DNA of 64,000 nucleotides from Acetothermia bacterium 64_32 (GTDB taxonomy: Bacteria > Bipolaricaulota > Bipolaricaulia > Bipolaricaulales > Bipolaricaulaceae): assembly GCA_001508155.1 (NCBI GenBank), contig LGFI01000006.1, positions 35,157 through 99,156 on the forward strand, in the 5' to 3' direction. The position numbers and the translations under genes are program-made. This document shows positions 2,926 through 47,173 of the stretch, piece after piece. Each line of letters starts with the position of its first letter. Positions within the stretch are counted from its first letter, which is position 1. The notes under the pieces are model-generated. The model was not told the DNA's origin. It did no database searches and saw only the letters and a program-made list of their open reading frames with translations.

Positions 2926-2955
2926 TTGACAGGGCTCGGCGGGGCTTCGTAAGAT
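2926..2955 (+). promoter_or_regulatory. Sigma70-like promoter abutting the tRNA array (TTGACA, 18-nt spacer, TAAGAT)
   Basis: TTGACA lies at 2926-2931 and TAAGAT at about 2950-2955. This is 5 nt before the first tRNA 5' end at 2961. Confidence 0.4.
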
Positions 2956-2960
2956 TCGGC

Positions 2961-3033
2961 GGGCCGTTAGCTCAACAGGCAGAGCAGCGGACTCTTAATC
3001 CGCGGGTTGGGGGTTCGAGTCCTCCACGGCCCA
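2961..3033 (+). tRNA. tRNA-Lys (anticodon CTT)
   Basis: Cloverleaf read by eye: acceptor GGGCCGT/ACGGCCC, anticodon stem GCGGA/TCCGC with loop CTCTTAA, T-loop TTCGAGT. CCA is not encoded. Confidence 0.8.
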
Positions 3034-3097
3034 CAGCCAGTTGCAAGTTGACAAGTCCCAAGTCGAAAGGCATGTCGGGACTTGCGACTGGATTTTC

Positions 3098-3173
3098 GGG
3101 TCGTTAGCTCAGTTGGCAGAGCACCGGCCTTTTAAGCCGGGTGTCGCAGGTTCGATTCCTGCACGACCCACCA
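3098..3173 (+). tRNA. tRNA-Lys (anticodon TTT), CCA encoded
   Basis: Acceptor GGGTCGT/ACGACCC, anticodon loop CTTTTAA, T-loop TTCGATT, 3' ACCA. Confidence 0.8.
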
Positions 3174-3248
3174 GTCGCCGTCGTCTAGGCAGGCCTAGGA
3201 CACCGGGCTTTCAATCCGGTAACGGGGGTTCAAATCCCCCCGGCGACA
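3174..3248 (+). tRNA. tRNA-Glu (anticodon TTC)
   Basis: Acceptor GTCGCCG/CGGCGAC, anticodon loop CTTTCAA, T-loop TTCAAAT. It begins immediately after the CCA of the preceding tRNA with zero spacer. Confidence 0.75.
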
Positions 3249-3314
3249 CAAGGAAAGTCGAAGGTCCCAAGAAGCCGACTTTCGACTTGGGGCTTTTGAC
3301 TTGTAGCTGGGTTT

Positions 3315-3386
3315 GGGCGAGTAGCTCAGGGGGAGAGCATCCGGCTTACATCCGGAAGGTCAGAGGTTCAAATCCTCTCTCGCCCA
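3315..3386 (+). tRNA. tRNA-Val (anticodon TAC)
   Basis: Acceptor GGGCGAG/CTCGCCC, anticodon loop CTTACAT, T-loop TTCAAAT. Confidence 0.75.
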
Positions 3387-3448
3387 CTAGAGCCCCTGGA
3401 GGTGGTGGGGCGAGCTTGCTAAAATAGCGTGGTGCCCCAAAGAGGGGT

Positions 3449-3475
3449 CCCCGCAAAACCTGCGGTTTTGTGGGG
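3449..3475 (+). other. Stable spacer hairpin (12-bp stem CCCCGCAAAACC/GGTTTTGTGGGG, 3-nt loop) between tRNA-Val and tRNA-Asp
   Basis: Perfect inverted repeat with one G-U pair. The context is not T-rich, so it is more likely a processing structure than a terminator. Confidence 0.4.
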
Positions 3476-3482
3476 CATGAGA

Positions 3483-3561
3483 GGGGACGTGGTCTAGGCT
3501 GGACTAGGACACCGGATTGTCACTCCGGAGATCGCGGGTTCAAATCCCGTCGTCCCCGCCA
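3483..3561 (+). tRNA. tRNA-Asp (anticodon GTC), CCA encoded
   Basis: Acceptor GGGGACG/CGTCCCC, anticodon loop TTGTCAC, T-loop TTCAAAT, 3' GCCA. Confidence 0.8.
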
Positions 3562-3655
3562 AGAGCAGTCGCAAGTCGGCAAGTCCCAAGTTCATGGGGA
3601 CTTGTGGCCTAGGAATCTTTGAACTTGTGACTAGTTGACTTGCAACTGTCAGTGT

Positions 3656-3731
3656 GGCGAGGTAGCTCAGGTGGTAGAGCACGCGGCTGAAAACCGCGGT
3701 GTCCCCAGTTCGACTCTGGGCCTCGCCACCA
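3656..3731 (+). tRNA. tRNA-Phe (anticodon GAA), CCA encoded
   Basis: Acceptor GGCGAGG/CCTCGCC, anticodon loop CTGAAAA, T-loop TTCGACT, 3' ACCA. Confidence 0.8.
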
Positions 3732-3775: not shown

Positions 3776-5110
3776 ATGGGGCAGACCGTACAGGAGATTT
3801 GGGAGCGGGCGAAGGCCCGCCTTGCCGAGGAGGTCCCACCCCCAAGCTTTGCCGCCTGGTTCTCCGACGCCACCCCCAAGGGGATCGAGGACGGGGCGTT
3901 TGTGCTGGAGGTGCCTTCCGTATTCGCCAAGGGGGGGATAGAAAGGAAATACCGGGCCCTCCTGGAGAGGGTGCTCGCTGAGGTGACGGGAAGGCAGCTT
4001 CCCATAAAGGTGGTGGTGGGCGATCAGCTCCCACCCCCTCCCCCACCCCCCACCTCCCCGGAGACCGCCCGTCGGTACCTGGGGACCTTGCCGCTGAACC
4101 CCGAGTACACCTTCGACACCTTCGTCCGGGGGAGGAACTCCCAGCTCGCCTACGCCGCCGCCGTAGCGGTGGCCGAGTCCCCGGCCCGGGCCTACAACCC
4201 CCTTTTCATCTACGGCAAGGTGGGCCTGGGGAAGACCCACCTGCTTCATGCCATCGGCAACCGGGTGCTGGCAAAGCCCGGGGACCTCACGGTGGTCTAC
4301 ACCACCTCGGAGCGGTTCGCCATCGAGCTCATCCACTCCATCGGCCAGGGCACCACCGAACAGTTTCGCTCAAAATACCGGAACGTGGACGTCCTCCTCA
4401 TCGACGACGTCCATTTCCTGCGCAACAAGGAGGGCACTCAAGAGGAGCTGTTCCACACGTTCAACGAGCTGTATGGGAACGGGAAGCAGATCGTGCTGTC
4501 CTCCGACCGCCCCCCGGACGAGCTGCAGGGGCTGCAGGACCGGCTGGTGTCCCGGTTCCGGTGGGGCTTGGTGGCGGACATCCAGCCACCGGACCTGGAG
4601 ACCAGGATCGCCATCCTCAGGGAGAAGGCCCGCCGGCGGGGCCTGGAGGTGGAGGACTCCATCCTGGAGATCATCGCCTCCCGCATCACCACCAACGTGC
4701 GGGACCTGGAAGGGGCCCTCATCCGGGCCATGGCCTATATCGAGCTCGGGGAAGGCCCCATCACCCCCAAGGTTTTGGAGGAGATCCTCCCCAAGGAGGA
4801 GACGGCCCGGCGGCTGACGGTGGAGGCGATCAAGGAGGAGGTGGCGGCCCGGTATAACGTGCCGGTGGCCGAACTCGAGGGCCCCTCCCGCAAGAAGGAG
4901 ATCGCCCAGGCCCGCCAGATCGCCATCTTCCTCGCCCGGGAGCTCACCGACTCCTCCTTCCCCGCCCTGGGCCGGGCCTTCGGCGGCCGCGACCACACCA
5001 CCATCATGCACTCCTACCAGAAGATGCAGGAACTCATCCGCCAGGTCCCCCTCCTCCGAGGGGAGATCGAAGGCCTGCGAGACGAGCTTGTGGCCAAATA
5101 CGGGAAATGA
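3776..5110 (+). CDS. dnaA: Chromosomal replication initiator protein DnaA
   Basis: Walker A GKVGLGKTHL, an AAA+ domain and a C-terminal DNA-binding domain (ARQIAIFLARELT). There is a proline-rich linker [10 protein letters not shown]. It lies only 44 nt after tRNA-Phe. Confidence 0.95.
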   Translation: MGQTVQEIWERAKARLAEEVPPPSFAAWFSDATPKGIEDGAFVLEVPSVFAKGGIERKYRALLERVLAEVTGRQLPIKVVVGDQLPPPPPPPTSPETARRYLGTLPLNPEYTFDTFVRGRNSQLAYAAAVAVAESPARAYNPLFIYGKVGLGKTHLLHAIGNRVLAKPGDLTVVYTTSERFAIELIHSIGQGTTEQFRSKYRNVDVLLIDDVHFLRNKEGTQEELFHTFNELYGNGKQIVLSSDRPPDELQGLQDRLVSRFRWGLVADIQPPDLETRIAILREKARRRGLEVEDSILEIIASRITTNVRDLEGALIRAMAYIELGEGPITPKVLEEILPKEETARRLTVEAIKEEVAARYNVPVAELEGPSRKKEIAQARQIAIFLARELTDSSFPALGRAFGGRDHTTIMHSYQKMQELIRQVPLLRGEIEGLRDELVAKYGK

Positions 5111-5912: not shown

Positions 5913-6452
5913 ATGGCGATGGAAGCTACCACCGTGATCGCGCTGCGCTCGGAGGCGGCCCGCTGTGCCGTCATGGCCTGTGACGGCCAGGCCACCATGG
6001 AATCCCGGGTGGTGAAGGCGGGTGCCAGGAAGGTTCATCGCATCCATGGGGGGACGGTCCTGGCCGGTTTTGCCGGGGGGACGGCCGATGGCCTTGCGCT
6101 CCTGGAGCGGCTGGAGGGGAAGCTGAAGCAGTACGGCTCCCTCCGGCGGGCGGCGGTGGAGCTTTCTAAAGAATGGCGCACCGACCGGGCCTTGAGGCGC
6201 CTGGAGGCGGTGATCCTGGCCGCCTCGGAGGAGGCCTTGCTTCTAATCACCGGGCAGGGGGATGTGCTGGAGCCGGACGACGGGCTGGCCGGGATCGGCT
6301 CCGGCGGGGGCTATGCCCTGGCCGCCGCCCGGGCCCTGGTCCGCCACACCGACCTCCCCCCCGCTGAGGTCGCCCGAAATGCCCTTATCATCGCCTCGGA
6401 GATCGACGTCTACACCAACGACAGGATCGCATTGGAGGAGGTGCGCTGGTGA
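5913..6452 (+). CDS. hslV: ATP-dependent protease subunit HslV
   Basis: MEATTVIALR with the Thr N-terminus, plus the GGTADGLALLERLEGKL and GSGGGYALAAARAL motifs. The ORF track draws an upstream extension from 5691, which I judge spurious. Confidence 0.9.
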   Translation: MAMEATTVIALRSEAARCAVMACDGQATMESRVVKAGARKVHRIHGGTVLAGFAGGTADGLALLERLEGKLKQYGSLRRAAVELSKEWRTDRALRRLEAVILAASEEALLLITGQGDVLEPDDGLAGIGSGGGYALAAARALVRHTDLPPAEVARNALIIASEIDVYTNDRIALEEVRW

Positions 6453-7762
6453 CCCTGCCCGGCCTCACCCCCAGGGAGATCGTTCGGGAGCTGTCCCGCT
6501 ACATCGTGGGCCAGGAGGAGGCCAAGAGGGCGGTGGCCATCGCCTTAAGGAACCGCATCCGCCGGGCCGCCCTGCCCGAGGAGGTGCGGCGGGAGGTGCG
6601 CCCGAAAAACATCCTCATGATCGGCCCCACAGGGGTGGGGAAGACCGAGATCGCCCGGCGCCTCGCCCAGATCACCGACTCCCCCTTCCTCAAGGTGGAG
6701 GCCACCAAGTACACCGAAGTGGGGTACGTGGGGCGGGACGTGGAGTCCATGATCCGGGACCTGGTGGAGGTGGCGATCTCGCTGGTGCGGGCCCGGGAGG
6801 CCCGCAGGGTGGAGCGGGAGGCGGATAGGTTCGTTGAGGAAAGGCTCCTTGACGCCCTGCTTTCCGGGGCGGCAGGGGGGGAGGGGGCAAGGGAGCGCCT
6901 CAGGGAAAGGCTCCGGGCCGGGGAACTGGAGGACCAATGGGTGGAGATCCCGGTGAAGGAGTCGTTGGCCCCCCAGATAAACGTGTTCTCCGAGGCGGGG
7001 ATGGACCAGCTGGGGATAGATCTCTCTCAGCTTTTTGCGGGCTTCCCTGCCCCAAGGAGGCCCAAGCGGATGACGGTTCGGAAGGCGCGGGAGGTGCTCC
7101 GGGAGGAGGCCCTGGAGAGGCTTTTAAACATGGAGGAGGTGCGGGCCGAGGGGCTGCGCCTGGCCGAAGAGTCAGGGATCGTGTTCATCGACGAACTGGA
7201 TAAGCTCGCCTTGGGCGGGCCGGAGGAGCGGGGCGGGCCGGGGGTGTCCCGTCAGGGGGTGCAGCGGGACCTCCTGCCGCTCCTTGAGGGGACCACAGTG
7301 CGGACCCGGCACGGGACGGTGCGCACCGACAACATACTTTTCATCGCCGCCGGCGCCTTCTCCCAGGCCAAGCCCAGCGACCTCATGCCCGAGCTCCAGG
7401 GACGCCTCCCCATCCGGGTGGAGCTCCACCCTTTAACCGAGGAGCACTTCAAGCGGATCCTAGTGGAGCCGGAAGATGCCCTCACCAAGCAGTATCAAGC
7501 CCTGCTTTCCACGGAAGGGGTAGAGGTGGAGTTCACCGATGAGGCTGTAAGTGAGATCGCCCATGTAGCCGCCGAGCTCAACCGGGCCCTGGAGGACATC
7601 GGGGCGCGACGCCTGATAACCGTGATGGAACACCTGATGGAGGAGCTCTCGTTCTCCGCCGACCTGCACCGGGGGGAGAGGTTCGTCATAGACCGCAAGT
7701 ACGTGCAGGAGAGGGTTACCGGCCTGGCAGCCGACCTTGAACTCTCCCGCTACATCCTATAA
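6449..7762 (+). CDS. hslU: ATP-dependent protease ATPase subunit HslU
   Basis: IGPTGVGKTEIARRLA Walker A. Full-length HslU architecture. GTG start overlaps the hslV stop (GTGA). Confidence 0.95.
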   Translation: MTLPGLTPREIVRELSRYIVGQEEAKRAVAIALRNRIRRAALPEEVRREVRPKNILMIGPTGVGKTEIARRLAQITDSPFLKVEATKYTEVGYVGRDVESMIRDLVEVAISLVRAREARRVEREADRFVEERLLDALLSGAAGGEGARERLRERLRAGELEDQWVEIPVKESLAPQINVFSEAGMDQLGIDLSQLFAGFPAPRRPKRMTVRKAREVLREEALERLLNMEEVRAEGLRLAEESGIVFIDELDKLALGGPEERGGPGVSRQGVQRDLLPLLEGTTVRTRHGTVRTDNILFIAAGAFSQAKPSDLMPELQGRLPIRVELHPLTEEHFKRILVEPEDALTKQYQALLSTEGVEVEFTDEAVSEIAHVAAELNRALEDIGARRLITVMEHLMEELSFSADLHRGERFVIDRKYVQERVTGLAADLELSRYIL

Positions 7763-11429: not shown

Positions 11430-12266
11430 TCAGGGCAGCAGCTCCGGGACCCGGGCCCTGAGCTGCGGGGTCAGGTCCTGGAGCTGGCCTGCATCGAGGT
11501 ACAGGGCGTCCTCTTTTTCGAGCACCAGGGCGTAGCCCTGGGCCTGGGCGATCCTCTGGGTGGCCTTGGCCAGCATTGCCTGGATCACCTGGGACACCAG
11601 CTGATCCAGCTGGTTCAGGGAGGTGCTGAGCCCCTGGTATAGGCCGATGAAGGTGTTGAGGTCGCCTTGCTCGGCGGCGTTTTTCAGCTCGTCAAACTGC
11701 CCCTTCAGGGGGCGGAGTTGCCCTGTCAGCTCGGTGAGGGTTTTTTGGAGGTCGGAGAACTCCTGGGAGGCGGCTAGCCTGTCGAGCAGGTCCAGGTACC
11801 AGTTGAGGGGGGCGGCCAGGAGCTCCGCCTGCACCAGCATGGACTCCCTTTGGTATGTCTCGTCCTCGATCTGGCCCGCCTCGTGCCTTTGTCGTAGGTC
11901 CTGCAGCTCCTGGTTCTTGAAGTCCAAGGTGTTTTGAAGGGGTTGATAGAGCTCGTCCATCAGGCCCATTAGGTCCACGTAGGCCAGCTTGAGGGCGGGA
12001 TGATCTGCCCCGGTCGGGGCCGCTTCCGAGGGGAGCTCGGCCCTCAGGGCCTCTGTCTCCGCCTCGAGGCGGGAAAGCCGGTCTTGCGTTCGCTGAAGAA
12101 GCGTTGAGGCCTCGGCCAGGGACCTTTCCAACCCTTCCATCCTCTGAGTCAAGGCCTGTGTTTCGCGGGACTCCCCGCCCGAAAGCACGGCCACCCCGAT
12201 CAAGCCCCCCACAAGGCCCGCCCCCAACCCCAGGAGGACGCTTAAAAGCAGAACCTTGCCCGTCAT
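11430..12266 (-). CDS. OmpH/Skp-like periplasmic chaperone family protein
   Basis: N-terminal TM/signal segment, a long coiled coil, and an Skp-like C-terminus (AQAQGYALVLEKEDALYLDAG). Its stop abuts the mscL stop (TGATCA). Confidence 0.5.
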   Translation of the reverse strand: MTGKVLLLSVLLGLGAGLVGGLIGVAVLSGGESRETQALTQRMEGLERSLAEASTLLQRTQDRLSRLEAETEALRAELPSEAAPTGADHPALKLAYVDLMGLMDELYQPLQNTLDFKNQELQDLRQRHEAGQIEDETYQRESMLVQAELLAAPLNWYLDLLDRLAASQEFSDLQKTLTELTGQLRPLKGQFDELKNAAEQGDLNTFIGLYQGLSTSLNQLDQLVSQVIQAMLAKATQRIAQAQGYALVLEKEDALYLDAGQLQDLTPQLRARVPELLP

Positions 12267-12346
12267 CGTTCCTCCTTACCAGAGCCTTCTCGGCGGAAAG
12301 GGTAACGCCGACATCGATTTCGACAAGTCTTCTGACGGGGCTCAGG

Positions 12347-12456
12347 GATCTTTCATCTCTGCGGGGAAGCGAGGGTCGTGGGGTCAGGAGTTTACTTTTT
12401 GACATCCGTAGGCCTGCAGTGCAGGCGTACCCACCCCACCGGCATCAAAAGTAAAG
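12347..12456. repeat. Copy A of a ~110-nt structured intergenic element (12-bp terminal inverted repeat CTTTACTTTTGA / TCAAAAGTAAAG)
   Basis: It aligns at roughly 80-85% identity with 37793-37920, by eye, and shares the TTGACATCC...ACCCACCCCACC..CATCAAAAGTAAAG core. Confidence 0.5.
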
Positions 12457-12495
12457 ACACGACGCCTGCTCCTCGCAGGCCCTGAAGCAGCAGCT

Positions 12496-13470
12496 TTAGT
12501 CGCCGGCGATCTCGGCTAGCCAGTCCAAGGCACCCGGGACGTGATACCAGACGCTTCTGCTTTCCGCCACATAATCTACGGCCTCGCTCTCGTCCCCAAT
12601 TCCGACGCTCCTGAACGTGTCCGGCGGAAGCGGCTCCCACCCGAGGAGGTACTTCGGCACGTGGGGGTTGGCCGCAAGTGCCCGGCGCAGGAGCTTCCGG
12701 GCATAAGGGGTATCGCCCTCCCTGCGGAAGGCCCACAGAGCCCGGCTGTAGGCCCACCAGGCAGTGGGATCATCCCGGTAGCGCGCGAGGAGCTCTTTGG
12801 CCTCCTCGTCCCGGCCCAGGATGAGCAAGGCGTTTATGAGGAAAAAGCGCACCCCTTGGTTGTCGCGGGGGTTGAGGCGCAGGAGGTCCTTAAAGTGTTC
12901 AACTGCGGCCTCGTATTCCCCGAGCTCCCACAGGCACCGGGCAAGGCCCAACCGAGCCCGCATGTAGGGGCGGGTGGAAAGGAGCCCCCAGAAGTGGCCC
13001 GCTTCCTCCTTGAAGATCTCCGGGCCCAAAGCGCGCTCGGCGGCGGCCACCCCTTTAGCGTAGAGGTCGCGGGCCTCGCTCGTGCTGCAGGCGGTCTCCT
13101 CGGCCAGGATCACGTAGGCATCGGCACAATCGGGACAGACCTCGAGGGCCTTGCAGGCCAGGGCCACCCGCTCCGGGCCCTCGGTCTCCCACGCCTCGTA
13201 AACCAGGTTCTGAGCCTCCTCTTGCGGGGTGCGCGGCGCGGTCCGCGGGATCTTGCCTCCTGCTTCCGCAAGGGTCCGATCGAGAAACTCCTTTATCTCC
13301 TCTTTGGACTCGAAGGTGTGCTCCCCAAGGAGCCGATGGAGCTCGGCGAGCTCCCGCTCCAGGGCCCGGAAGTCTGAAGGAGGCCCTCGCCTTTCCTCCC
13401 CTTTCCCCTGCTGAACCCCCTCCCTTTTCTTCCCCTGCTTTTCCTTCCCCATGGGATCCTCCTTAGTCAA
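12496..13470 (-). CDS. Hypothetical TPR-like repeat protein with a Lys/Glu-rich N-terminus
   Basis: 324-aa ORF with a coding-like composition and helical repeats (LGEYEAAVEHFKDLLRLNPRD). No specific family recognised. Confidence 0.55.
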   Translation of the reverse strand: MTKEDPMGKEKQGKKREGVQQGKGEERRGPPSDFRALERELAELHRLLGEHTFESKEEIKEFLDRTLAEAGGKIPRTAPRTPQEEAQNLVYEAWETEGPERVALACKALEVCPDCADAYVILAEETACSTSEARDLYAKGVAAAERALGPEIFKEEAGHFWGLLSTRPYMRARLGLARCLWELGEYEAAVEHFKDLLRLNPRDNQGVRFFLINALLILGRDEEAKELLARYRDDPTAWWAYSRALWAFRREGDTPYARKLLRRALAANPHVPKYLLGWEPLPPDTFRSVGIGDESEAVDYVAESRSVWYHVPGALDWLAEIAGD

Positions 13471-14880: not shown

Positions 14881-15683
14881 ATTTGATCCTCAAGGTGGTG
14901 GGCCGAAGGGAGGACGGCTACCACCTCCTCCAAAGCTTGATGTGCGCCGTGGACCTTTACGACGAGCTTTTTCTGGTGCTTGCGGGCGACCTTACGGTGG
15001 AGGTGGAGGGCCTGGACATCCCGCCGGAGGACAACCTGGTCCTGCGGGCGGCCAGGCTCCTCCGCGACCGCGTCGGGACCGGGAAGGGCGCCCACATCAG
15101 AGTGATCAAGAGGATTCCGGTGGGGGCGGGCTTGGGCGGGGGGAGCTCGGACACCGCCGCGGCCTTGGCCGGGCTAAACCGCCTGTGGGGCTTGGGCCTC
15201 AGCCGAGCGGCCCTGCAGGAGGTCGGACTTAAGCTGGGCGCGGACGTGCCGTTTTTCTTAGGGGAGAGCCCGGCCTGGGCGGAAGGGGTGGGGGAGAGGC
15301 TCTCCCCAGCCCAGGTGAAACTGCCAGGCGCCTTCCTGATCCTGGTGCCCCCGTTCTCCTGTTCCACCCCGGAGGTGTATCGGCTCTACGACGAGCTTAG
15401 CCTCCCGCCATCCTGTCCCCTCCGCCTCGGCGGGGAAATCCGTTTTGATAACGACCTGTGGCCGGCTGCTGTAAGGCTCCGGCCCGAGCTCGGAAGGCTA
15501 CGGTCCCGGCTCGAGGCTTTAACGGGTTTAGGGGTGGGAATGACGGGTTCCGGCTCAGCCCTGTTCTGCGCGTTTTCTTCCCGGGACCAGGCAGAGAAAG
15601 CGGCCCAGAGCCTGAAGAAAACGGTGGAAGGGAAGTTGTTCGTTGCAGCACCGGTCCCCCGTGGATACAAGTTTGCAGCATGA
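14844..15683 (+). CDS. ispE: 4-diphosphocytidyl-2-C-methyl-D-erythritol kinase
   Basis: GHMP kinase motif IPVGAGLGGGSSDTAAAL and an N-terminal AKLNLILKV. It overlaps the hutI 3' end. Confidence 0.85.
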   Translation: MADVRVLAYAKLNLILKVVGRREDGYHLLQSLMCAVDLYDELFLVLAGDLTVEVEGLDIPPEDNLVLRAARLLRDRVGTGKGAHIRVIKRIPVGAGLGGGSSDTAAALAGLNRLWGLGLSRAALQEVGLKLGADVPFFLGESPAWAEGVGERLSPAQVKLPGAFLILVPPFSCSTPEVYRLYDELSLPPSCPLRLGGEIRFDNDLWPAAVRLRPELGRLRSRLEALTGLGVGMTGSGSALFCAFSSRDQAEKAAQSLKKTVEGKLFVAAPVPRGYKFAA

Positions 15684-16904: not shown

Positions 16905-17038
16905 TTTGAGTCCCCTCCCCAGGCGGGATAAGATCTGGGCAAATCTGCCCGGTAGGGGGTTCGCTGGATTCAACTTGGGTGCGGGCCCGCAAGGGGAAAT
17001 CCAACAAGGGGTGGTTCGAAGTGACGGATCGGATTCGA

Positions 17039-18688
17039 ATGGAGGACGCGCTCGACGCCAGCGACGTACGCCTGTTCAGCCGCGGGGATACGGTCACTGG
17101 CACGGTGGTAGAGGAGACCGAAGGCGAGTTCCTGGTCGACATCGGCTACAAGTCCGAGGCCCTCCTTCCCAAAGGGGAGCTGGCCCCGTTCCACGACCAG
17201 GTCTCCCCAGGGGAGGAGCTGGAGGTCATCGTCACCTACATCGACGAGGAAAACGGGACCGTCTTCGTCTCGGAGCGCCAGGCCTTCTTTGCCAAGAGGT
17301 ACGCGGAGCTGGAACGGGCCTATAGGTCGGGCGCGCCCGTCAAGGGGAAGGTCGTCGAGGAGGTGAAAGGCGCAGGATACCAGGTGAGCTTGGGCGGGAT
17401 CAGGGCGTTCTTGCCCGGCTCCCACCTGGGCAAGGGGATCTCCACCAAGTTCGAACGGCTTAAGGACAAAGAGCTCGACCTGAAGATCATTGAGTTCTCC
17501 CGCCGGGACAGGAACATCGTGGTATCCCGCCGCGAGTACCTTAAGGACCTGGAGGAACAGAAAAAGCGGGAACTCTTCTCCTCCCTCACCCCGGGGAAGG
17601 TCCTGGAGGGGAAGATAAAGAGCGTGGTCGACTTCGGGATATTCGTGGACGTGGGCGGCTACGATGGGCTGGTACACCGGACCGAGATCTGCTGGAAGGA
17701 CATCCCCGTCCCCCCCCAGGACAAATACAGGCCTGGACAAAAGGTGCGGGTGATGGTCCTGGAGGCGGACCCGGAAGAGGAACGCATCTCCCTTTCCATC
17801 AAGCGCCTGCGCCCTGACCCTTGGATCGGGATCGCGGATCGCTACCCCCCCGGCACCCGCGTCACCGGAAAGGTGGTCTCCGTCACCGACTTCGGCGCGT
17901 TTGTGGAGCTGGAAGAGGACGTGGAGGGGTTGGTGCACGTCTCCGAGCTTTCCTGGGGGTTCCCTAAGCACCCCAAGGAGGTGGTGCAGGAAGGGGACAC
18001 GGTGGACGTGGTGGTGCTCGGAGTGGACGAGAAGAAAAAACGCATCTCCCTCTCCCTGCGGAGGACCCTGCCCGACCCCTGGGAGGACGTGGAGCACCGC
18101 TATCCCCGGGGGGCTTTGGTGGAGGGCAAGGTCACCAAGATCACCGAGTTCGGGGCCTTCGTGGAGTTGGAGGAGGGGGTGGAGGGCCTGATCCACGTCT
18201 CGGAGCTCTCTTGGAAGCGCATCTCTCATCCTAAGGAGCTCATGGAGGAAGGGCAGACCGTTCGGGCCATGGTGCTCAAGGTGGATCAGGGCCAGCGGCG
18301 GATCAGCCTGTCGGTCAAGGCCCTGGAGCAGGACCCCTGGGAGCAGTTCCTGGAACAGTATTCCGTGGGGTCGGTGGTCTCGGGGCCGGTGACCCAGATC
18401 AAGGACTTCGGGGCGTTTGTGCGCATCACGCCGGCGGTGGAGGGGCTGATCCACGTGTCCGAGATCGCCCAAGAGCGCATAAACACCCCCTCGGAGGTGC
18501 TACGGCTGGGCCAAGAGGTGACCGCCAAGATCATCGGGATAAACGAGGCCAAGCGACAGGTGCGGCTTTCCATCCGCAAGCTTCAGGAGGAAGCGGCCGA
18601 ATCGGAGAAGGAGCGGTTCATCCAAGGCCCTGGCCGGGAGACCGTAACCCTGCGGGAGCACCTCAAGGGCCTGTCCGGGGAGGGGTGA
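17039..18688 (+). CDS. rpsA: 30S ribosomal protein S1
   Basis: Six S1 repeats with recurring GxV..ItdFGaFVel..gveGLiHvSE. ATG at 17039; the ORF track gives an alternative GTG at 16979. Confidence 0.9.
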   Translation: MEDALDASDVRLFSRGDTVTGTVVEETEGEFLVDIGYKSEALLPKGELAPFHDQVSPGEELEVIVTYIDEENGTVFVSERQAFFAKRYAELERAYRSGAPVKGKVVEEVKGAGYQVSLGGIRAFLPGSHLGKGISTKFERLKDKELDLKIIEFSRRDRNIVVSRREYLKDLEEQKKRELFSSLTPGKVLEGKIKSVVDFGIFVDVGGYDGLVHRTEICWKDIPVPPQDKYRPGQKVRVMVLEADPEEERISLSIKRLRPDPWIGIADRYPPGTRVTGKVVSVTDFGAFVELEEDVEGLVHVSELSWGFPKHPKEVVQEGDTVDVVVLGVDEKKKRISLSLRRTLPDPWEDVEHRYPRGALVEGKVTKITEFGAFVELEEGVEGLIHVSELSWKRISHPKELMEEGQTVRAMVLKVDQGQRRISLSVKALEQDPWEQFLEQYSVGSVVSGPVTQIKDFGAFVRITPAVEGLIHVSEIAQERINTPSEVLRLGQEVTAKIIGINEAKRQVRLSIRKLQEEAAESEKERFIQGPGRETVTLREHLKGLSGEG

Positions 18689-36613: not shown

Positions 36614-37177
36614 ATGACCTGGACGATTCCCAATCAGATCACGCTTGCCAGGATCCTGGCGATCCCGCTCTTCATGTATTTCCTGTTCGCCGAGGGCACG
36701 ATATACAAGATCCTGGCCCTGGCCATCTTCGCCCTGGCCGCCGCCTCCGACGCGGTGGACGGGTACCTAGCCCGCTCCCTGAACCAGGTCACCCCGTTCG
36801 GGAAGTTCGCCGACCCCATCGCCGACAAGATCCTGGTGGCCGCCGCCCTGGTTTCCTTCGTCCAGCTGGATGAGCTCACCGCCACCCCGGTGGTGACCAT
36901 CCTCTCCCGCGAGTTCCTGGTGACCGGGCTGCGCATCCTGGCTGTGGCCGAGGGGCAAATGATCCCCGCCTCTTTCCTGGGCAAGGCCAAAACGCTTTCC
37001 CATATCGGGCTTGTGCTTTTCATCCTGGCCACCCGCTATTTCGGCATGGGGCCCATCGGCCTGGTCCTAAAGGACGTCTTCCTGTATCTGGCCGTGGCCC
37101 TGGCCATCGTCTCCGGGGGGGAATATTTCTGGAGGTCAAGGGAGCTCTTCGTGCATGGCTTGAAGGGGCAGAAATGA
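36614..37177 (+). CDS. pgsA: CDP-diacylglycerol--glycerol-3-phosphate 3-phosphatidyltransferase
   Basis: CDP-alcohol phosphatidyltransferase motif DAVDGYLAR...GKFADPIADK. Confidence 0.9.
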   Translation: MTWTIPNQITLARILAIPLFMYFLFAEGTIYKILALAIFALAAASDAVDGYLARSLNQVTPFGKFADPIADKILVAAALVSFVQLDELTATPVVTILSREFLVTGLRILAVAEGQMIPASFLGKAKTLSHIGLVLFILATRYFGMGPIGLVLKDVFLYLAVALAIVSGGEYFWRSRELFVHGLKGQK

Positions 37178-37635
37178 GGAAACTACTTGGCCCAGACGGG
37201 GAAATAGACCTCAACGCCCTCCCCCTGGACGGCCTCCTCCGCCAGGCCATGGAGGGGGGAGAACGGGCCTGGCCGGCGGTCCGCCTGCTTCAGACGATGC
37301 ACCGAGGGGGGAGGACGGAAGCGGGCGTGTTCCTGCTTGGGCTCCTTGCCGCCTCTGGAGAGGATTGGAAGAGGCGAGAGAAGCTGGTGGAGTCCCTGGA
37401 CGGGTTCCACCACCCCGGTTGCGTGCACTACCTGGTGGGGGAGTTGCGCCGGGTGAAGGGCAGCAACTCCACCCGCGGGTATCTGAACGCCATCCTCCGG
37501 GTGCTTGAGCGGATGCCCGCCGAGCTGGTGAAGGATGAGCTCTTTGAACTGGCGAACGACCCAGGCCTTTCCCGGCGCATGCGCCAAAAGGCGGAGCAGG
37601 CCTTTTGGGCCGTTGTAATGAGGGATGGAGGCTAA
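37174..37635 (+). CDS. Hypothetical protein
   Basis: 153-aa ORF, ATGA-coupled to pgsA, with coding-like composition. No family recognised. Confidence 0.45.
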   Translation: MRKLLGPDGEIDLNALPLDGLLRQAMEGGERAWPAVRLLQTMHRGGRTEAGVFLLGLLAASGEDWKRREKLVESLDGFHHPGCVHYLVGELRRVKGSNSTRGYLNAILRVLERMPAELVKDELFELANDPGLSRRMRQKAEQAFWAVVMRDGG

Positions 37636-37792
37636 ACATAGGTTGGTTCCCCTAGCTATTCGGCGATCGGGTTTGCCTCGAGTAGTACACGGAGTAGAGC
37701 GAGGTTAGAAGCTTGCCGGACATGATTGCCCTGAATCCTGAGGGCGGGGTAAGGTGTCGTGGGTTGACATTAGCTCCCTTTTCACGTGAAGA

Positions 37793-37920
37793 GGATCCTC
37801 CGCGAGTTCTTCCATGAGGGGAAGGGCGCCGACCCCATAGTCCACTTCCCAATCATGTTCAAATCTTTGCTTTTGACATCCATCGGCCTCTCGGTGTAGG
37901 CGAACCCACCCCACCAACAT
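37793..37920. repeat. Copy B of the ~110-nt structured intergenic element (TIR CTTTGCTTTTGA / TCAAAAGTAAAG)
   Basis: Aligns with 12347-12456. It lies in a ~300-nt lower-GC stretch without convincing ORFs. Confidence 0.5.
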
Positions 37921-37957
37921 CAAAAGTAAAGCCCTGAACCCGCGGGGTGGCGAGGCT

Positions 37958-38377
37958 CTAGGGGCGAGCCTCGCCGAAGGTTTCCTCCAGCCAGCGGGCG
38001 ATCCCGTCCCTGACGCGCCGGAAGGCGGCTAGGCGCTCTTCCTCCGTCCCCTCGGCGGCCGCCGGGTCGGGGAAGCCGGCGTGGAGGTACTCCTTGGCCC
38101 CGGGGAAGAAGGGGCAGGTCTCTTTGGCGTGGTCGCATACGGTGACCACGTAGTCGAACTCCTGTCCCAGGAACTCTTCGATGGATTTGGAGTGCTGGTG
38201 GGAGATGTCGATCCCCAGCTCGGCCATGACTTTGATTGCCAGGGGATGGACCCCGGTGGGCTTGATCCCGGCGCTTTTGGCCTCGAAGCGGTCGCCGTAG
38301 CGGGCGTTCACGAGACCCTCAGCCATCTGGGAGCGGGCCGAGTTATGAGTACAGATGAAAAGCACCTTCTTCTTCAC
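37958..38377 (-). CDS. arsC: Arsenate reductase (thioredoxin-coupled, LMW-PTP type)
   Basis: CTHNSARSQMAE P-loop. Confidence 0.9.
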   Translation of the reverse strand: MKKKVLFICTHNSARSQMAEGLVNARYGDRFEAKSAGIKPTGVHPLAIKVMAELGIDISHQHSKSIEEFLGQEFDYVVTVCDHAKETCPFFPGAKEYLHAGFPDPAAAEGTEEERLAAFRRVRDGIARWLEETFGEARP

Positions 38378-44300: not shown

Positions 44301-44864
44301 TTACCCCGATTCGATGTTGGGAGATTGATCTATTGGCACGAACTTTTCCCACTCATACCCGTTCCGCTTCAGGATCGACCTGATTTCTTCCAGTGTGGGC
44401 TCGGGCAAGGTGGGGGAGCGGCTCAGGATCCAGCCATACTTTCTCTTCGGCTCGCCCACCACGGCCCAGGAGTAGTCGGGCCCCAAAGCCAGGATCCAGT
44501 AGTTCCCTGGGAAAAGCCAGTGCCCAAGGAACTTGAAGAAGCTCACCCTGAGCTTCCCCGGCTCTTTGGGGTTCGGGACCCAAGCACGGCCGCGGGCGAC
44601 TTTTTTCTCGCCACGGGCGTTGAAGCACTCGTTGACTACCTCGATTGTGCCATCGGGAAGGAGGGTGTAAGTGGCGGTGGTCCCTGACTTACAGCCCCGC
44701 TCGAACCAGGTGGGGATGTGGGCGATAGCGTACCACCTGCCCACGTAGTGCTCGAGATCCACTTTTTCCACGACTTCTGGCAAGGAAGTCGGCCGCTCAA
44801 CCATTGCCACCAGGGCAATAAGCCCCACCGCAGCCAGAAAAAGCCACTCCGTGTTCGAAAGCAT
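44301..44864 (-). CDS. blc: Bacterial lipocalin (Blc-like)
   Basis: YVGRWYAIAHIP and the SWAVVGEPKRKYGWILSR lipocalin signature. Confidence 0.85.
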   Translation of the reverse strand: MLSNTEWLFLAAVGLIALVAMVERPTSLPEVVEKVDLEHYVGRWYAIAHIPTWFERGCKSGTTATYTLLPDGTIEVVNECFNARGEKKVARGRAWVPNPKEPGKLRVSFFKFLGHWLFPGNYWILALGPDYSWAVVGEPKRKYGWILSRSPTLPEPTLEEIRSILKRNGYEWEKFVPIDQSPNIESG

Positions 44865-45027
44865 CTCGCCACCTCCTCATCAATGCTTTCCGCCCCGGAG
44901 ATCCGAGCGCGGGGTCGGAAGATGTCGTTCATGTGGATTCAGTTTAGCAGATAAGCCGGCATTGACCGACTGCCAGTGGCCCCCACTCTCTATACAGCAT
45001 AGGCAAAGGGCGCCCGCCAAGAGCCGC

Positions 45028-45221
45028 ACGCTGGAGAACTGGCTCTGGAAGGCGGCCTGTGCCATCCGCAGCCCCGCCGACGTCCCGAAGTTCAAGGATT
45101 ACATCCTGCCCTGTTCTTCCAGAAGTGGCTTTCCGATGTGTTAGACGATGAGGCGGCCCGCCGGGTCGCCCCGACCACCCACGCTGGATTGACCCTTGAC
45201 CGCTCTCTAACCGCCATTTAA
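45028..45221 (+). pseudogene. N-terminal remnant of a type I R-M methyltransferase subunit (HsdM_N-like), frameshifted and truncated
   Basis: LENWLWKAACAIRSPADVPKFKDYILP, then after a -1 shift LFFQKWLSDVLDDEAA, matches the HsdM N-terminal pattern LWKAADxLRG...[22 protein letters not shown]. No MTase core follows. Confidence 0.4.
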
Positions 45222-45256
45222 ACTGGTCTGAGACTGGTCCATAAGAGGTGAAGAGG

Positions 45257-45493
45257 ATGGAAGAGATTGGAGCTTATGAGGCCAAGGCGCAGTTTTCCGA
45301 GCTCCTACGGCGTGTGGAGAAGGGTGAACGGTTCGTGATTACCCGACATGGGGTTCCCGTGGCCGTTTTGGGACCTGTCTCACCCCGTCACCGGGACGTC
45401 AGGGAAGTGATCAGGGCCCTAAAGGAATTCCGGAAAAAACACACCCTGGGCGGTTTGAAGATCAAAGACCTGATAGAGGAAGGACGCATGTGA
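45257..45493 (+). CDS. vapB: Type II antitoxin VapB (Phd/YefM-like)
   Basis: AYEAKAQFSELLRRVEKGERFVITRHGVPVAVL. 4-nt overlap with vapC. Confidence 0.8.
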   Translation: MEEIGAYEAKAQFSELLRRVEKGERFVITRHGVPVAVLGPVSPRHRDVREVIRALKEFRKKHTLGGLKIKDLIEEGRM

Positions 45494-45924
45494 TGAAACG
45501 GGTTCTGTTTGTGCTAGACGCATCAGTGGCCCTGGCCTGGGGGTTAGAGGACGAAAGTAACCCATATACCGATGCGGCTCTGGATGCGCTGGAACACGGA
45601 GAAGCACTCGTTCCATCTATCTGGCCGCTGGAAGTCAGTAATGCCCTTCTGATGGCGGAGCGGAGGGAGCGCATCTCCCAGGCCATGGTAGCGGAATTTC
45701 TGGAGTACCTTCGATCATTGCCCATCGTTGTGGAGCAATCCGGTCCGGAACAGATCTTCGGGGAAGTGCTCCTTCTGGCGCGCGAACAGGGCCTCTCCGT
45801 CTATGACGCGGCCTATCTGGACCTTGCCCTTCGCCGCGGACTTCCTTTGGCCACACAGGACCGGGCCCTTAGGACCGCCGCCTTCAGGATGGGCGTTGAG
45901 ATCTTCGGCCCGCAGGAGGGATGA
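45490..45924 (+). CDS. vapC: PIN-domain ribonuclease toxin VapC
   Basis: PIN acidic residues (VLDASV, D..YDAAYLDLA, ATQD). Confidence 0.85.
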   Translation: MMKRVLFVLDASVALAWGLEDESNPYTDAALDALEHGEALVPSIWPLEVSNALLMAERRERISQAMVAEFLEYLRSLPIVVEQSGPEQIFGEVLLLAREQGLSVYDAAYLDLALRRGLPLATQDRALRTAAFRMGVEIFGPQEG

Positions 45925-46122
45925 TGGAACTCCGTCGCGCAGGGTCTGCCGGAGCCCGAGTTTCAGAACCAGGGGTGGCCTTCTGGTCACTTTAGCCAAG
46001 GACCCCCTACACGCCGGAGGGTTTGTGGCGCGGGGGCTCAGCGAACGCAGATCCGAAAGTAGGGAGGGCCTTTTGTTGCCGAAAGTGAGAGGGGATTCGG
46101 GGAACAGAAAGGGGCAAGAGGC

Positions 46123-46422
46123 ATGATGGGAAAAATTGAGTTGCCCGAGGCGGAAATTGCGGCGTTTTGCCGTCGCTATAAGGTGCGGAGGCTTTCCCTT
46201 TTTGGCTCCGTACTGCGGGAGGATTTCGGTCCTAAGAGCGATATCGATATGCTTGTGGAATTCGAGCCCGGAGCACAGGTGGGTTTCTTGACCCTCAGCC
46301 GCATGGCACGGGAACTTTCCACCATCCTGGGCCGTCCGGTGGACCTCGTGCCGAGGAGCGGCCTCAAACCGGCAATCCGCGACGCCATACTGAAAGAAGA
46401 GCACGTTATTTATGCGACCTGA
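46123..46422 (+). CDS. mntA: Nucleotidyltransferase antitoxin MntA
   Basis: GSVLREDFGPKSDIDMLVEF. Confidence 0.85.
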   Translation: MMGKIELPEAEIAAFCRRYKVRRLSLFGSVLREDFGPKSDIDMLVEFEPGAQVGFLTLSRMARELSTILGRPVDLVPRSGLKPAIRDAILKEEHVIYAT

Positions 46423-46756
46423 GCGGCTGTATCTGCTGGACATCATAGAAGCAGCCGATGCCATCGCTCGCTTCCTCACCGATGTGGATGAGGGAACTTT
46501 CATGCAGGACGAATTAAGGCAAAGCGCGGTGCTGCACAAGCTTATTGTCATAGGTGAGGATGCGGCCCGTTTGCCCGCCGAATTCAAGGAGCAACATCCG
46601 GAGATCCCATGGTCGGACATTGTGGCTTTTCGTAACATTGCGGTTCATGCGTATTTCTCGGTCGACTGGCGAATTGTCTGGGTAACAGCCACGCAGGAAG
46701 TGCCTGAATTGCGCCGCCAGATCGCTTTACTGCTAGAGGACCTTGGCGATGAATGA
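46412..46756 (+). CDS. hepT: HEPN-domain toxin HepT (DUF86)
   Basis: Rx4HxY motif RNIAVHAY. Overlaps mntA. Confidence 0.85.
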   Translation: MRPERLYLLDIIEAADAIARFLTDVDEGTFMQDELRQSAVLHKLIVIGEDAARLPAEFKEQHPEIPWSDIVAFRNIAVHAYFSVDWRIVWVTATQEVPELRRQIALLLEDLGDE

Positions 46757-46940
46757 GGTGAAAAACGTATCGCACGATGACTACCGCATGACCGAACTCG
46801 GCCCCCTGCTCGAAGAGTAGCAGGTGGTGAGGTTATTGAAGCCATTAAAACCAGTCTGTGGTGGAAAACACTTGACCATGCAAAAGAACGCCTGCGTGCG
46901 GTCCTAGCGCGCAAAGCAACGCGCTGATTTCCAGGAGCGT

Positions 46941-47168: not shown

Positions 47169-47173
47169 AGCTG

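What the first reader, a model, noticed from the sequence alone, without database searches (positions are those of the whole stretch)
12347..12456. A ~110-nt structured intergenic element present twice (second copy at 37793-37920), with a sigma70-like TTGACA motif
By eye, two intergenic stretches 25 kb apart align over ~110 nt at roughly 80-85% identity. The shared core is (T)CTTCCAT..GGGGAAG......CTTT(A/G)CTTTTGACATCC.T.GGCCT....GTG.AGGCG.ACCCACCCCACC..CATCAAAAGTAAAG. The ends are a 12-bp inverted repeat, CTTTxCTTTTGA ... TCAAAAGTAAAG. The change in the left arm is compensatory: in copy A an A pairs with T, and in copy B a G pairs with T (G-U in RNA). Both copies lie immediately 3' of minus-strand genes (the TPR-like gene and arsC). 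The layout is MITE-like or sRNA-like. A TTGACA hexamer sits inside the left arm.
Basis: seen in the sequence. Interest (0 to 1): 0.65.

Follow-up and report, generated by a model that had tools for sequence, protein, structure and literature searches.

The report
Small palindromic dispersed repeat, two copies
Two 87-base palindromic stretches lying just after genes in an uncultured oil-reservoir bacterium (Acetothermia/Bipolaricaulota) are copies of a small dispersed repeat, most like a miniature mobile element; there is no support for a small RNA gene or a promoter, so the finding is real but fairly ordinary.

Summary
The repeat is real but shorter than described. Only 61 nt (12397-12456 vs 37871-37931) are significantly similar: 85% identity, one indel, blastn E 2e-13. 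The upstream 'CTTCCAT..GGGGAAG' part is not above chance.

The 12-bp terminal inverted repeat is confirmed. It is the inner part of a longer 26-28-nt arm motif, 'M', with consensus GGGGTC.nG.CTTTACTTTTGACAT. Each copy is therefore an 87-nt unit (A 12380-12466, B 37855-37941): M, a 33-nt GC-rich core, then inverted M.

M also occurs outside the two units in the same species. One inverted pair lies 1.8 kb apart around an ATPase gene, 5 kb left of the window. Single copies occur in two other strains. Every M locus sits at or near a point where strains differ in gene order.

TTGACA is present but has no -10 box, although canonical promoters exist nearby. There is no Rfam family, no compensatory pair, no fold shared by both copies and no target-site duplication. 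Scans of genome, metagenome, viral, plasmid and phage collections found no further copies.

Best reading (about 0.45): a lineage-restricted MITE/REPIN-like palindromic repeat whose arms are protein-recognition sequences. The sRNA and promoter readings are not supported.

The parts
12380..12466 (.). Copy A, full 87-nt unit: arm M, GC-rich core, inverted arm M
   Evidence: Boundaries come from the alignment of eight arm copies. Sequence printed. The 61-nt stretch 12397-12456 is the significantly similar part.
12380..12407 (+). Copy A left arm (motif M, outer to inner): GGGGTCAGGAGTTTACTTTTTGACATCC. Contains TTGACA and one extra T relative to the other arms.
12408..12440 (.). Copy A core, GC-rich, with the 12-nt block ACCCACCCCACC that is identical in both copies and a local hairpin GCCTGC-AGT-GCAGGC that copy B does not keep
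12441..12466 (-). Copy A right arm (motif M read on the minus strand: GGCGTCGTGTCTTTACTTTTGATGCC). A diverged ortholog is present in strain JACIVN01 (L011 9665-9690).
37855..37941 (.). Copy B, full 87-nt unit with the same layout and orientation as A
37855..37882 (+). Copy B left arm: ATGTTCAAATCTTTGCTTTTGACATCCA (outer hexamer degraded)
37883..37915 (.). Copy B core, with ACCCACCCCACC
37916..37941 (-). Copy B right arm (read on the minus strand: GGGTTCAGGGCTTTACTTTTGATGTT)
12496..13470 (-). Flanking gene: TPR/ST7-like protein. Its stop codon is 29 nt from the outer end of copy A. Homology with the strain JACIVN01 copy of this gene ends exactly at the stop codon.
11430..12266 (-). Flanking gene: 278-aa coiled-coil, weakly OmpH-like protein. 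Its start codon is 113 nt beyond copy A. The gene is lost, apart from its last 42 nt, at the MscL locus of strain JACIVN01.
37174..37635 (+). Flanking gene: 153-aa protein of unknown function, convergent with arsC. Homology with strain DRR326764 ends 5 nt after its stop codon.
37958..38377 (-). Flanking gene: arsC (LMWPc family), last gene of an arsR-ACR3-arsC operon. Its stop codon is 16 nt from the outer end of copy B.

Best explanation
A and B are two copies of a short, lineage-restricted, palindromic dispersed DNA repeat of the MITE / REPIN kind. Each is an 87-bp unit: two inverted copies of a 26-28-nt arm motif M (GGGGTC.nG.CTTTACTTTTGACAT) around a 33-nt GC-rich core.

Proposed working. 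The arms are recognition sequences for a DNA enzyme encoded elsewhere in the genome, a transposase or recombinase. That enzyme, or recombination between arm copies, copied the unit as a whole into a second intergenic site just after a stop codon, where insertion does no harm. Because the arm motif is dispersed, its loci are also places where gene order is reshuffled between strains. Any effect on RNA, such as a long hairpin in the 3' untranslated region of the TPR and arsC transcripts, would be a by-product.

Shown: the repeat, its arm-core-arm anatomy, the recurrence of the arm motif, its intergenic positions, the strain differences next to it, and the absence of promoter and RNA-family signals.

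Inferred: mobility, the existence of a trans-acting enzyme, and that the arms are protein-binding sites.
For: 1. The A-B similarity is far above chance and sharply bounded, with unrelated flanks. This fits a unit copied on its own rather than a segmental duplication.

2. The arms belong to a motif family. A weight matrix built from the sites scores known sites 12-40 bits, while five shuffles of the window peak at 9.9-16.4 bits. All sites are intergenic. Sites found:
- A left, A right, B left, B right.
- L005 15336-15361 and 17111-17136, an inverted pair with GGGTC ends outward, 1.8 kb apart around a DUF234 ATPase gene.
- L011 9665-9690.
- L021 2597-2622, a perfect 13-mer plus 19 of 22 flanking bases shared with A.

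3. The outer hexamer GGGGTC is within one mismatch in 7 of 8 arms at a fixed distance. Yet only 4-5 of these 6 positions, and 1 of the next 5, could pair in a hairpin of A or B. The conservation is therefore of sequence, not of pairing, as expected for a protein-recognised end.

4. The unit was copied whole. The inner extensions are arm-specific and shared between copies: GACATCC on the left, GATG(C/T)(C/T)GG on the right.

5. All three M loci of this genome coincide with strain differences.
- Strain JACIVN01 has a vapBC cassette between the TPR stop codon and the diverged A right arm, and different DNA beyond the core.
- In strain DRR326764 the B locus is replaced from 5 nt after the 153-aa gene, with a single M 460 nt further on.
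- In JACIVN01 the 260 nt holding L005 M is replaced by 3.8 kb of toxin-antitoxin genes. A paralogous junction there ends within 1 nt of the outer end of M.

6. A relative whose TPR protein is 86% identical has the ancestral TPR-HAL arrangement with no element. The element is therefore a recent, lineage-specific acquisition.
Against: - No target-site duplication flanks either copy.
- No transposase, RAYT or integrase gene was seen in the window or the loci.
- No clean empty site was found.
- Only two full units and six further arm sites are known.
- Genome-wide copy number could not be measured, because the source assembly is not in the searchable DNA collections. A 20-nt pattern from the unit found nothing in 185,579 species-representative genomes apart from 3 chance hits. 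If the species representative is a close relative, A/B-type units are rare or absent there.
- 87 bp is small for a MITE.
- The core, including a 12/12 identical ACCCACCCCACC block, is as conserved as the arms. That is unusual for a MITE or REPIN spacer and hints at a function of its own.
Confidence: 0.45

Rival explanations
1. Cis-acting RNA element. Transcribed on the minus strand as the 3' untranslated region of the TPR and arsC mRNAs, the unit folds into a long hairpin. The hairpin would stop 3'-5' exonucleases or pause or terminate RNA polymerase, as REP elements do in E. coli.
For: - Both units start 16-29 nt after a minus-strand stop codon.
- The minus-strand consensus fold has 19 pairs (-16 kcal/mol) against 11 pairs (-6.4) on the plus strand. 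Its three one-sided changes all keep a pair (C-G to U.G twice, G.U to G-C once), and the remaining substitutions within the folded part of the core fall in its loop or bulge.
- Copy B on the minus strand folds better than shuffles (z -2.9).
Against: - There is no compensatory pair, and with two sequences the consensus fold is fitted to the data.
- Copy A on the minus strand folds no better than shuffles (z +0.14).
- The minimum-energy fold of the full copy A does not use the terminal stem on either strand.
- No U-tract follows the hairpin, and the terminator scan finds 0 sites. A canonical hairpin plus U-tract terminator exists elsewhere in this genome (L005 ~15295-15335).
- Single arm copies cannot form the hairpin yet keep the sequence.
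- The orthologous A right arm in JACIVN01 has diverged to about 70% identity with indels, in a genome that is 95-98% identical elsewhere. That is not what purifying selection on an RNA would give.
Confidence: 0.15
2. DNA site for a site-specific recombination or gene-cassette system. M would be a recombinase site, and the paired form a folded site analogous to an integron attC: outer box, unpaired spacer, inner box, variable loop. It would explain insertion of toxin-antitoxin and defence cassettes next to it.
For: - The geometry resembles attC: a 4-5-bp outer stem, a 5x5 unpaired spacer, a 12-bp inner stem with one extra base in A, and a 33-nt terminal region. The unit also lies just after the stop codon of the upstream gene.
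- Cassette-like differences lie beside M loci: vapBC in L011, PhdYeFM/PIN modules in L006, a Type ISP fragment in L021.
- The vapBC insertion is bounded by an imperfect 8-bp direct repeat GC(G/A)ACTAA.
Against: - The canonical attC boxes RYYYAAC / GTTRRRY are not present; the boxes here are GGGGTC / GACCCC and CTTTAC / GTAAAG.
- There is no integrase gene in the 75 kb seen.
- The two units are 25 kb apart with housekeeping genes between them (S1, Gmk, YchF, PBP, RsmH, TpiA), so this is not an array.
- The inserted cassettes themselves carry no M.
- Breakpoints are 0-215 nt from M rather than at a fixed position.
Confidence: 0.1
3. Binding site of a regulator or nucleoid protein. M would be an operator-like DNA motif, and the paired form would bind two protein units.
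For: - M is conserved in sequence rather than in pairing.
- It contains a short direct repeat, AAAG-N-AAAG.
- Three arm copies lie 100-175 nt upstream of a start codon in the same orientation: A left before the 278-aa gene, L005a before the aldolase gene, L011 before vapB.
Against: - The other arms point into the 3' ends of convergent genes.
- The neighbouring genes have nothing in common.
- Distances to promoters are variable. For vapB the motif lies about 45 nt upstream of the -35 box.
- This reading does not explain why the 33-nt core is copied along with the arms.
Confidence: 0.12
4. Independent small RNA gene driven by the TTGACA in the left arm. This is the first reader's sRNA reading: plus strand, running antisense into the 3' ends of the TPR gene and arsC.
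For: - TTGACA is conserved in both left arms and in two single M copies.
- The C-rich block ACCCACCCCACC would lie near the 5' end of such a transcript and could pair with G-rich ribosome-binding sites. This is an inference only.
Against: - No -10 hexamer at 16-18 nt in any copy: the positions read CAGGCG, GTAGGC, ATTCCA and ACCCCC.
- No terminator follows.
- No Rfam match. The best hit is mascRNA at 18 bits against a gathering score of 42.5, E 0.27, and it is on the other strand.
- The right arms carry TTGATG instead of TTGACA.
Confidence: 0.03
5. Inert relic. The two units are decaying leftovers of an old duplication or of ends of a lost element, with no present activity or function.
For: - Low copy number and no enzyme gene seen.
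- The outer hexamer of B left is degraded (ATGTTC).
- The orthologous arm has diverged strongly in JACIVN01.
- There are no target-site duplications.
Against: - The unit is identical in three independent assemblies of the same population. These assemblies are 99.7% identical overall, so this says little.
- The 28-nt stretch ACCCACCCCACCNNCATCAAAAGTAAAG is identical in A and B apart from the two N positions, while neighbouring positions vary. This suggests either constraint or a recent copy.
Confidence: 0.15

Closest known systems
MITEs (miniature inverted-repeat transposable elements), e.g. Correia elements of Neisseria, RUP of Streptococcus, Nezha of cyanobacteria
   Same: Short, non-coding and intergenic. 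Terminal inverted repeats of about 26 bp. Copied as a unit to unrelated loci, often just after genes. The arm sequence also occurs at the ends of a longer segment (the 1.8-kb pair in L005). Associated with strain-level rearrangements.
   Different: No target-site duplication. No parent insertion sequence with the same ends was identified. 87 bp is at the very low end of MITE sizes. Only two full copies are known. The core is as conserved as the arms.
REP / REPIN / BIME elements (repetitive extragenic palindromes mobilised by RAYT transposases)
   Same: Two inverted short repeats around a spacer, forming a 60-110-nt hairpin unit. Extragenic, typically after stop codons and between convergent genes. 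No target-site duplication. Single arms also occur. Can act on mRNA 3' ends as a side effect.
   Different: REP arms are themselves GC-rich palindromes headed by a conserved GT(A/G)G. Here the arm is AT-rich in its inner half and not self-complementary. No RAYT gene was seen. Copy number appears far lower than the hundreds typical of REPs.
Integron attC sites
   Same: Imperfect palindrome of 57-141 bp placed right after the stop codon of the preceding gene. Two-box stem with an unpaired spacer and an extra-helical base. Variable gene cassettes lie nearby.
   Different: The conserved AAC/GTT core boxes are absent. There is no integrase and no array. Single half-sites exist.
Intrinsic (Rho-independent) terminators
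   Same: Position just downstream of stop codons; hairpin potential.
   Different: No U-tract after the stem. The stem is AT-rich and the loop region is 33-40 nt. The sequence, not only the shape, is shared between two unrelated genes.

Membership tests
MITE | Terminal inverted repeats | tested here: met
   The inner 12 bp are nearly perfect. Over the extended 26-28-nt arms, 18 of 29 aligned positions match in A and 17 of 28 in B.
MITE | Target-site duplication flanking the element | tested here: not met
   Flanks are GTCGT / TGCTC for A and CAATC / GCGGG for B, with no direct repeat at any nearby boundary.
MITE | Multiple dispersed copies in the genome | tested here: inconclusive
   Two full units and two further arm copies occur in about 75 kb of this genome, and further arm copies in two other strains. 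The whole genome could not be searched. The collection scans were negative.
MITE | A parent element with the same ends that encodes a transposase | tested here: not met
   No transposase domain was found in the window or the loci. The only gene bracketed by inverted arms is an ATPase_2/DUF234 protein. The rest of the genome was not testable.
MITE | Insertion polymorphism with an empty site | tested here: inconclusive
   Other strains differ at all three loci, but by replacement or rearrangement, not by clean absence. A more distant relative lacks the element in the TPR-HAL spacer.
REP / REPIN | Each repeat is a short GC-rich palindrome headed by GT(A/G)G | tested here: not met
   Arm M is not self-complementary. 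A GTAG occurs in the core of A (12408) but not at the same place in B.
REP / REPIN | Two inverted repeats forming one hairpin unit, extragenic | tested here: met
REP / REPIN | A RAYT (IS200-like Y1 transposase) gene flanked by the repeats | not testable with these tools
   Only about 160 kb of this lineage could be read, and none was seen in it.
Integron attC | R'' RYYYAAC and R' GTTRRRY core boxes | tested here: not met
   The boxes read GGGGTC(A/G) / (C/T)GACCCC and CTTTAC / GTAAAG.
Integron attC | Array of cassettes and/or a nearby intI gene | tested here: not met
   The units are 25 kb apart with housekeeping genes between them, and there is no integrase.
Sigma-70 promoter / independent sRNA gene | A -35 and a -10 hexamer 16-18 nt apart | tested here: not met
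   0 promoter-like sites in 12000-12800 and 37500-38300. A canonical site is found at 2926-2955.
Intrinsic terminator | GC-rich stem-loop followed directly by a U-tract | tested here: not met
   0 terminator-like sites in both regions on both strands.
Any Rfam family (release 15) | Score at or above the family's gathering threshold | tested here: not met
   Only the six tRNAs reach threshold in the window. Permissive searches give mascRNA at 18.2 bits against 42.5 (E 0.27) and nothing better.
Structured RNA in general | Base pairs kept through compensatory changes | tested here: inconclusive
   0 compensatory pairs. There are 3 one-sided changes compatible with the minus strand and 1 compatible with the plus strand. 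Two sequences are too few.

The most novel reading that the evidence does not exclude
Motif M would be the recognition site of an undescribed recombination system of Bipolaricaulota, and the 87-nt paired form a folded, attC-like site lacking the canonical AAC/GTT boxes. This system would insert and exchange toxin-antitoxin and defence cassettes right after the stop codons of resident genes. The conserved core (ACCCACCCCACC) would be part of the site or of a guide-like RNA.
Probability: 0.07. Interest if true: 0.65.

Novelty: new member of a known kind. Interest (0 to 1): 0.3.

Why it matters
If the main reading is right, this is a first look at a small dispersed repeat in Acetothermia/Bipolaricaulota, a candidate phylum known only from metagenome-assembled genomes. 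I know of no description of its mobile elements, though I searched the literature only for the source genome.

Such repeats break assemblies and mark places where gene order changes. Here all three loci carrying the arm motif coincide with strain-specific differences, so the motif is a practical marker for variable regions in these genomes.

It would matter more if the arm motif proved to be the site of a cassette-exchange system, but the present evidence does not reach that far. For RNA biology the result is negative: the 'structured element with a promoter' is not a supported RNA gene.

Tried and rejected
1. Known RNA family: rejected. Rfam gives only tRNAs at gathering threshold. The permissive searches give sub-threshold eukaryotic families that make no biological sense here.

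2. tRNA or tmRNA fragment acting as an island attachment site: rejected. ARAGORN finds nothing at the element. The 25 kb between the copies is housekeeping DNA.

3. Promoter or terminator: rejected on consensus scans.

4. Small protein. The minus-strand frame reads M(P/L)VGWVRLH in both copies with two synonymous differences. However, there is no ribosome-binding site, the frames diverge after 9 residues because of the indel, and no Pfam hit was found for the 37-aa ORF that JGI called over copy B. Rejected.

5. More copies by exact-pattern scans.
- Genome contigs returned 3 chance hits with no left arm.
- Metagenome contigs returned 0 hits for each of two different patterns. The first pattern was verified to match the known copies locally.
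- Viral contigs returned 0 hits for the unit and 3 chance hits in AT-rich phage DNA for M.
- Plasmids and phages gave nothing by blastn.

6. More copies through spurious ORFs. A concatenate of all six reading frames of both copies was searched against 5.8 billion proteins. 916 candidates shared words with it, but none scored E <= 10.

7. More copies in held sequence. nhmmer with all filters off and a covariance model found only A and B in 163 kb.

8. Pseudogene remnant beside copy B, or similarity of the A and B flanks to each other or to other loci: none found.

9. Conservation at orthologous loci in more distant relatives.
- Homologs of the 153-aa gene sit in unrelated contexts without the element.
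- The TPR ortholog at 86% identity is followed directly by HAL, with no element.
- The TPR homolog at 89% identity has the JACIVN01-type downstream region.

10. DGR, retron, dif, parS, DnaA box and IHF site were considered by eye from the sequence and dropped. There is no adenine-specific mismatch pattern and no reverse transcriptase. The consensus motifs are absent.

Full report
SOURCE. The window matches contig DMDO01000013.1 of assembly GCA_003445465.1 base for base over 20.4 kb. Public names attached to its proteins are 'Candidatus Bipolaricaulota bacterium', 'Candidatus Acetothermia bacterium' and 'Acetothermia bacterium 64_32'. The last is a metagenome-assembled genome from an oil reservoir (PMC6092417). 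G+C content is 63.4%. The window holds dnaA, a cluster of six tRNA genes, many housekeeping genes, an arsR-ACR3-arsC operon and a patch of toxin-antitoxin and defence genes.

THE OBSERVATION. Reading both stretches and aligning them shows a shared block in the same orientation. A local alignment restricted to the two intergenic spacers gives one segment: 12397-12456 against 37871-37931, 52 of 61 columns identical with one 1-nt indel. blastn gives E 2e-13 against the window.

Sub-patterns of 20 and 28 nt occur exactly twice, with 0.09 and 0.00 expected from shuffles. The downstream flanks are at chance level. The repeat is therefore real, but its clear part is about 61-65 nt, not 110.

The 12-bp terminal inverted repeat and the TTGACA are as described. 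Both copies follow minus-strand genes. The inverted repeat ends 39 nt after the TAA of a TPR/ST7-like gene and 26 nt after the TAG of arsC.

NOT A PROMOTER, TERMINATOR OR KNOWN RNA.
- The promoter and terminator consensus scans find nothing in either region on either strand. After TTGACA the positions where a -10 box should be read CAGGCG, GTAGGC, ATTCCA and ACCCCC in different copies.
- The organism does use canonical signals. TTGACA-18-TAAGAT lies just before the tRNA cluster. TTGACA-17-TATAGT lies before an aldolase gene, and a hairpin plus U-tract terminator follows an ABC transporter gene.
- Rfam finds only the tRNAs at gathering threshold. Permissive searches give mascRNA at 18 bits against a threshold of 42.5 and other noise.
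- Folding gives mixed results. z-scores run from +0.14 to -2.9 depending on copy and strand. The consensus fold has 11 pairs on the plus strand and 19 on the minus strand, with no compensatory pair on either. One one-sided change fits only the plus strand and three fit only the minus strand.
- Folded at full length, copy A does not use the terminal stem at all on either strand, whereas copy B does.

THE ARMS ARE COPIES OF A SHORTER MOTIF. The orthologous B locus was fetched from another strain (Logan DRR326764, L021). Homology there stops 5 nt after the 153-aa gene, and the arsC side is replaced by a fragment of a Type ISP restriction enzyme gene. Yet 460 nt further on lies GATGTCAAAAGTAAAGACGCGACCCC, a perfect copy of the arm with a flank like that of copy A.

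A search for the arm with mismatches, and then with a weight matrix, found further sites:
- Two lie 5 kb to the left of the window on the same contig (L005 15336-15361 and 17111-17136).
- One lies in strain JACIVN01 (L011 9665-9690).
- Shuffled windows peak at 10-16 bits, while the sites score 12-40.

Aligned from the outside inward, the eight arms give GGGGTC.nG.CTTT(A/G)CTTTTGA(C/T)(A/G)T, here called M. The outer hexamer is within one mismatch of GGGGTC in seven of eight arms. Yet in a hairpin of A or B only 4-5 of those six positions, and 1 of the next five, could pair. What is kept is therefore the sequence, not the pairing.

With these arms the units are A 12380-12466 and B 37855-37941, 87 nt each: M, a 33-nt GC-rich core holding the identical block ACCCACCCCACC, and inverted M. 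The inner extensions are specific to the side and shared between copies (GACATCC on the left, GATG(C/T)(C/T)GG on the right). The unit was therefore copied as a whole.

In L005 the two Ms are again inverted with the GGGTC ends outward. They are 1.8 kb apart around a gene for an ATPase_2/DUF234 protein.

COMPARISON BETWEEN STRAINS.
- Three assemblies of the same population carry identical A and B, or A alone where only that locus was fetched: DMDO01, JGI 3300010239 and SRR6482113, which are 99.7% identical.
- Strain JACIVN01 is 95-98% identical elsewhere but differs at each M locus.
- Next to MscL, JACIVN01 shares only the last 42 nt of the 278-aa gene with the window and then has other genes.
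- Its TPR gene is only 88% identical, and homology ends exactly at the stop codon.
- A vapBC cassette follows. After it comes a stretch that aligns with the window's spacer, with the A right arm and with the G-rich start of the core, at roughly 70% identity with indels. The sequence then runs into an Uma2 gene with no left arm.
- At the L005 locus, the 260 nt that hold one M are replaced in JACIVN01 by 3.8 kb of toxin-antitoxin genes. A second copy of the ABC gene's 3' end there stops within 1 nt of where M begins in L005.
- A more distant relative (TPR protein 86% identical, L022) has TPR followed directly by HAL and Era, the arrangement also seen beyond the insertions in JACIVN01. It has no element.

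The element is thus a recent, lineage-specific feature sitting where gene order is unstable.

SEARCH FOR MORE COPIES. Everything available was tried.
- Exact-pattern scans covered 185,579 species-representative genomes (3 chance hits), the JGI metagenome collection (0 hits with two independent patterns) and viral contigs.
- blastn against plasmids and phages found nothing.
- A six-frame peptide search of 5.8 billion predicted proteins, meant to catch spurious ORFs over other copies, found none.

The source genome and its close relatives are evidently not in the searchable DNA collections, since even the known copies were not returned. Genome-wide copy number therefore remains unknown. From the roughly 100 kb of this species that could be read, the density is about one M locus per 20-25 kb.

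INTERPRETATION. The anatomy consists of inverted arms conserved as sequence, a unit copied whole into unrelated spacers just after stop codons, arm copies elsewhere including a long-range inverted pair, restriction to one lineage, and association with rearrangements. The closest match is a miniature inverted-repeat or REPIN-like element whose arms are bound by an enzyme encoded elsewhere.

Several points keep confidence below one half: no target-site duplication, no identified enzyme, a very small size, few copies, and a core as conserved as the arms. The missing duplication would fit enzymes that make none (HUH/Y1, tyrosine or serine recombinases), but that is inference.

The rivals cannot be excluded with two full copies. 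They are a 3' UTR hairpin acting on mRNA ends, a recombination site for cassette exchange, a regulator-binding site, and an inert relic. The independent sRNA gene with its own sigma-70 promoter is the least supported.

VERDICT. This is a genuine but modest feature: a new member of the known class of short palindromic dispersed repeats, in a phylum where I know of no such repeat having been described. The decisive test is a search of the complete assemblies with the 87-nt unit and the M profile. It is simple but could not be run here.

Noticed in passing
L011 8757-8768 and 9620-9632 (strain JACIVN01, contig JACIVN010000002.1): An approximately 860-bp vapB-vapC cassette sits immediately after the TPR stop codon. 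It is bounded by an imperfect 8-bp direct repeat (GCGACTAA ... GCAACTAA). The window has the uninterrupted junction at 12488-12498.
   Followed up: partly
L005 15336-17136 (same contig, about 3.2-5 kb left of window position 1): A gene for a 475-aa ATPase_2/DUF234 protein is bracketed by two inverted copies of the arm motif, 1.8 kb apart. A perfect 24-bp palindrome CTAGTCTAGTTATAACTAGACTAG (17037-17060) lies just upstream of the gene's start and looks like an operator.
   Followed up: partly
L006 15302-19078 vs L005 15311-15570: Strain JACIVN01 carries 3.8 kb of toxin-antitoxin genes (PhdYeFM, PIN, PIN_2, HTH) in place of 260 nt. It also has a second copy (88% identical) of the last ~115 nt of the ABC transporter gene plus its terminator, at L006 17305-17411.
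   Followed up: partly
window 2926-3731: A canonical promoter (TTGACA-18-TAAGAT) directly precedes a cluster of six tRNA genes (Lys, Lys, Glu, Val, Asp, Phe). The cluster lies just upstream of dnaA (3776-5110), with DciA and HslVU following. The replication origin is probably in this neighbourhood.
   Followed up: no
window 44850-48300: A patch of toxin-antitoxin and defence genes (PhdYeFM-PIN, nucleotidyltransferase-HepT, AbiEi) lies about 6 kb beyond the ars operon and an AAA_14/DUF4143 ATPase gene. The region to the right of copy B looks like accessory DNA.
   Followed up: no
window 6449-7762 (L005 4413-6040 vs L007 4733-6046): The HslU-like gene is called as 387 aa plus a separate 73-aa ORF in DMDO01, but as one 437-aa gene in the JGI and Logan assemblies of the same population. 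A frameshift or assembly error in one of them is likely.
   Followed up: no
window 37786-37899 (+): JGI's annotation calls a 37-aa ORF that ends inside copy B. It has no Pfam match and no counterpart at copy A, so it is probably a spurious call caused by the element.
   Followed up: partly
L015, L017, L018 (other Bipolaricaulota-like contigs): Homologs of the 153-aa protein (59-66% identical) always follow a DUF7309/DUF6930 gene in unrelated neighbourhoods. One is fused to a LexA-like DNA-binding domain. The pair may be a small mobile or defence-related module.
   Followed up: no
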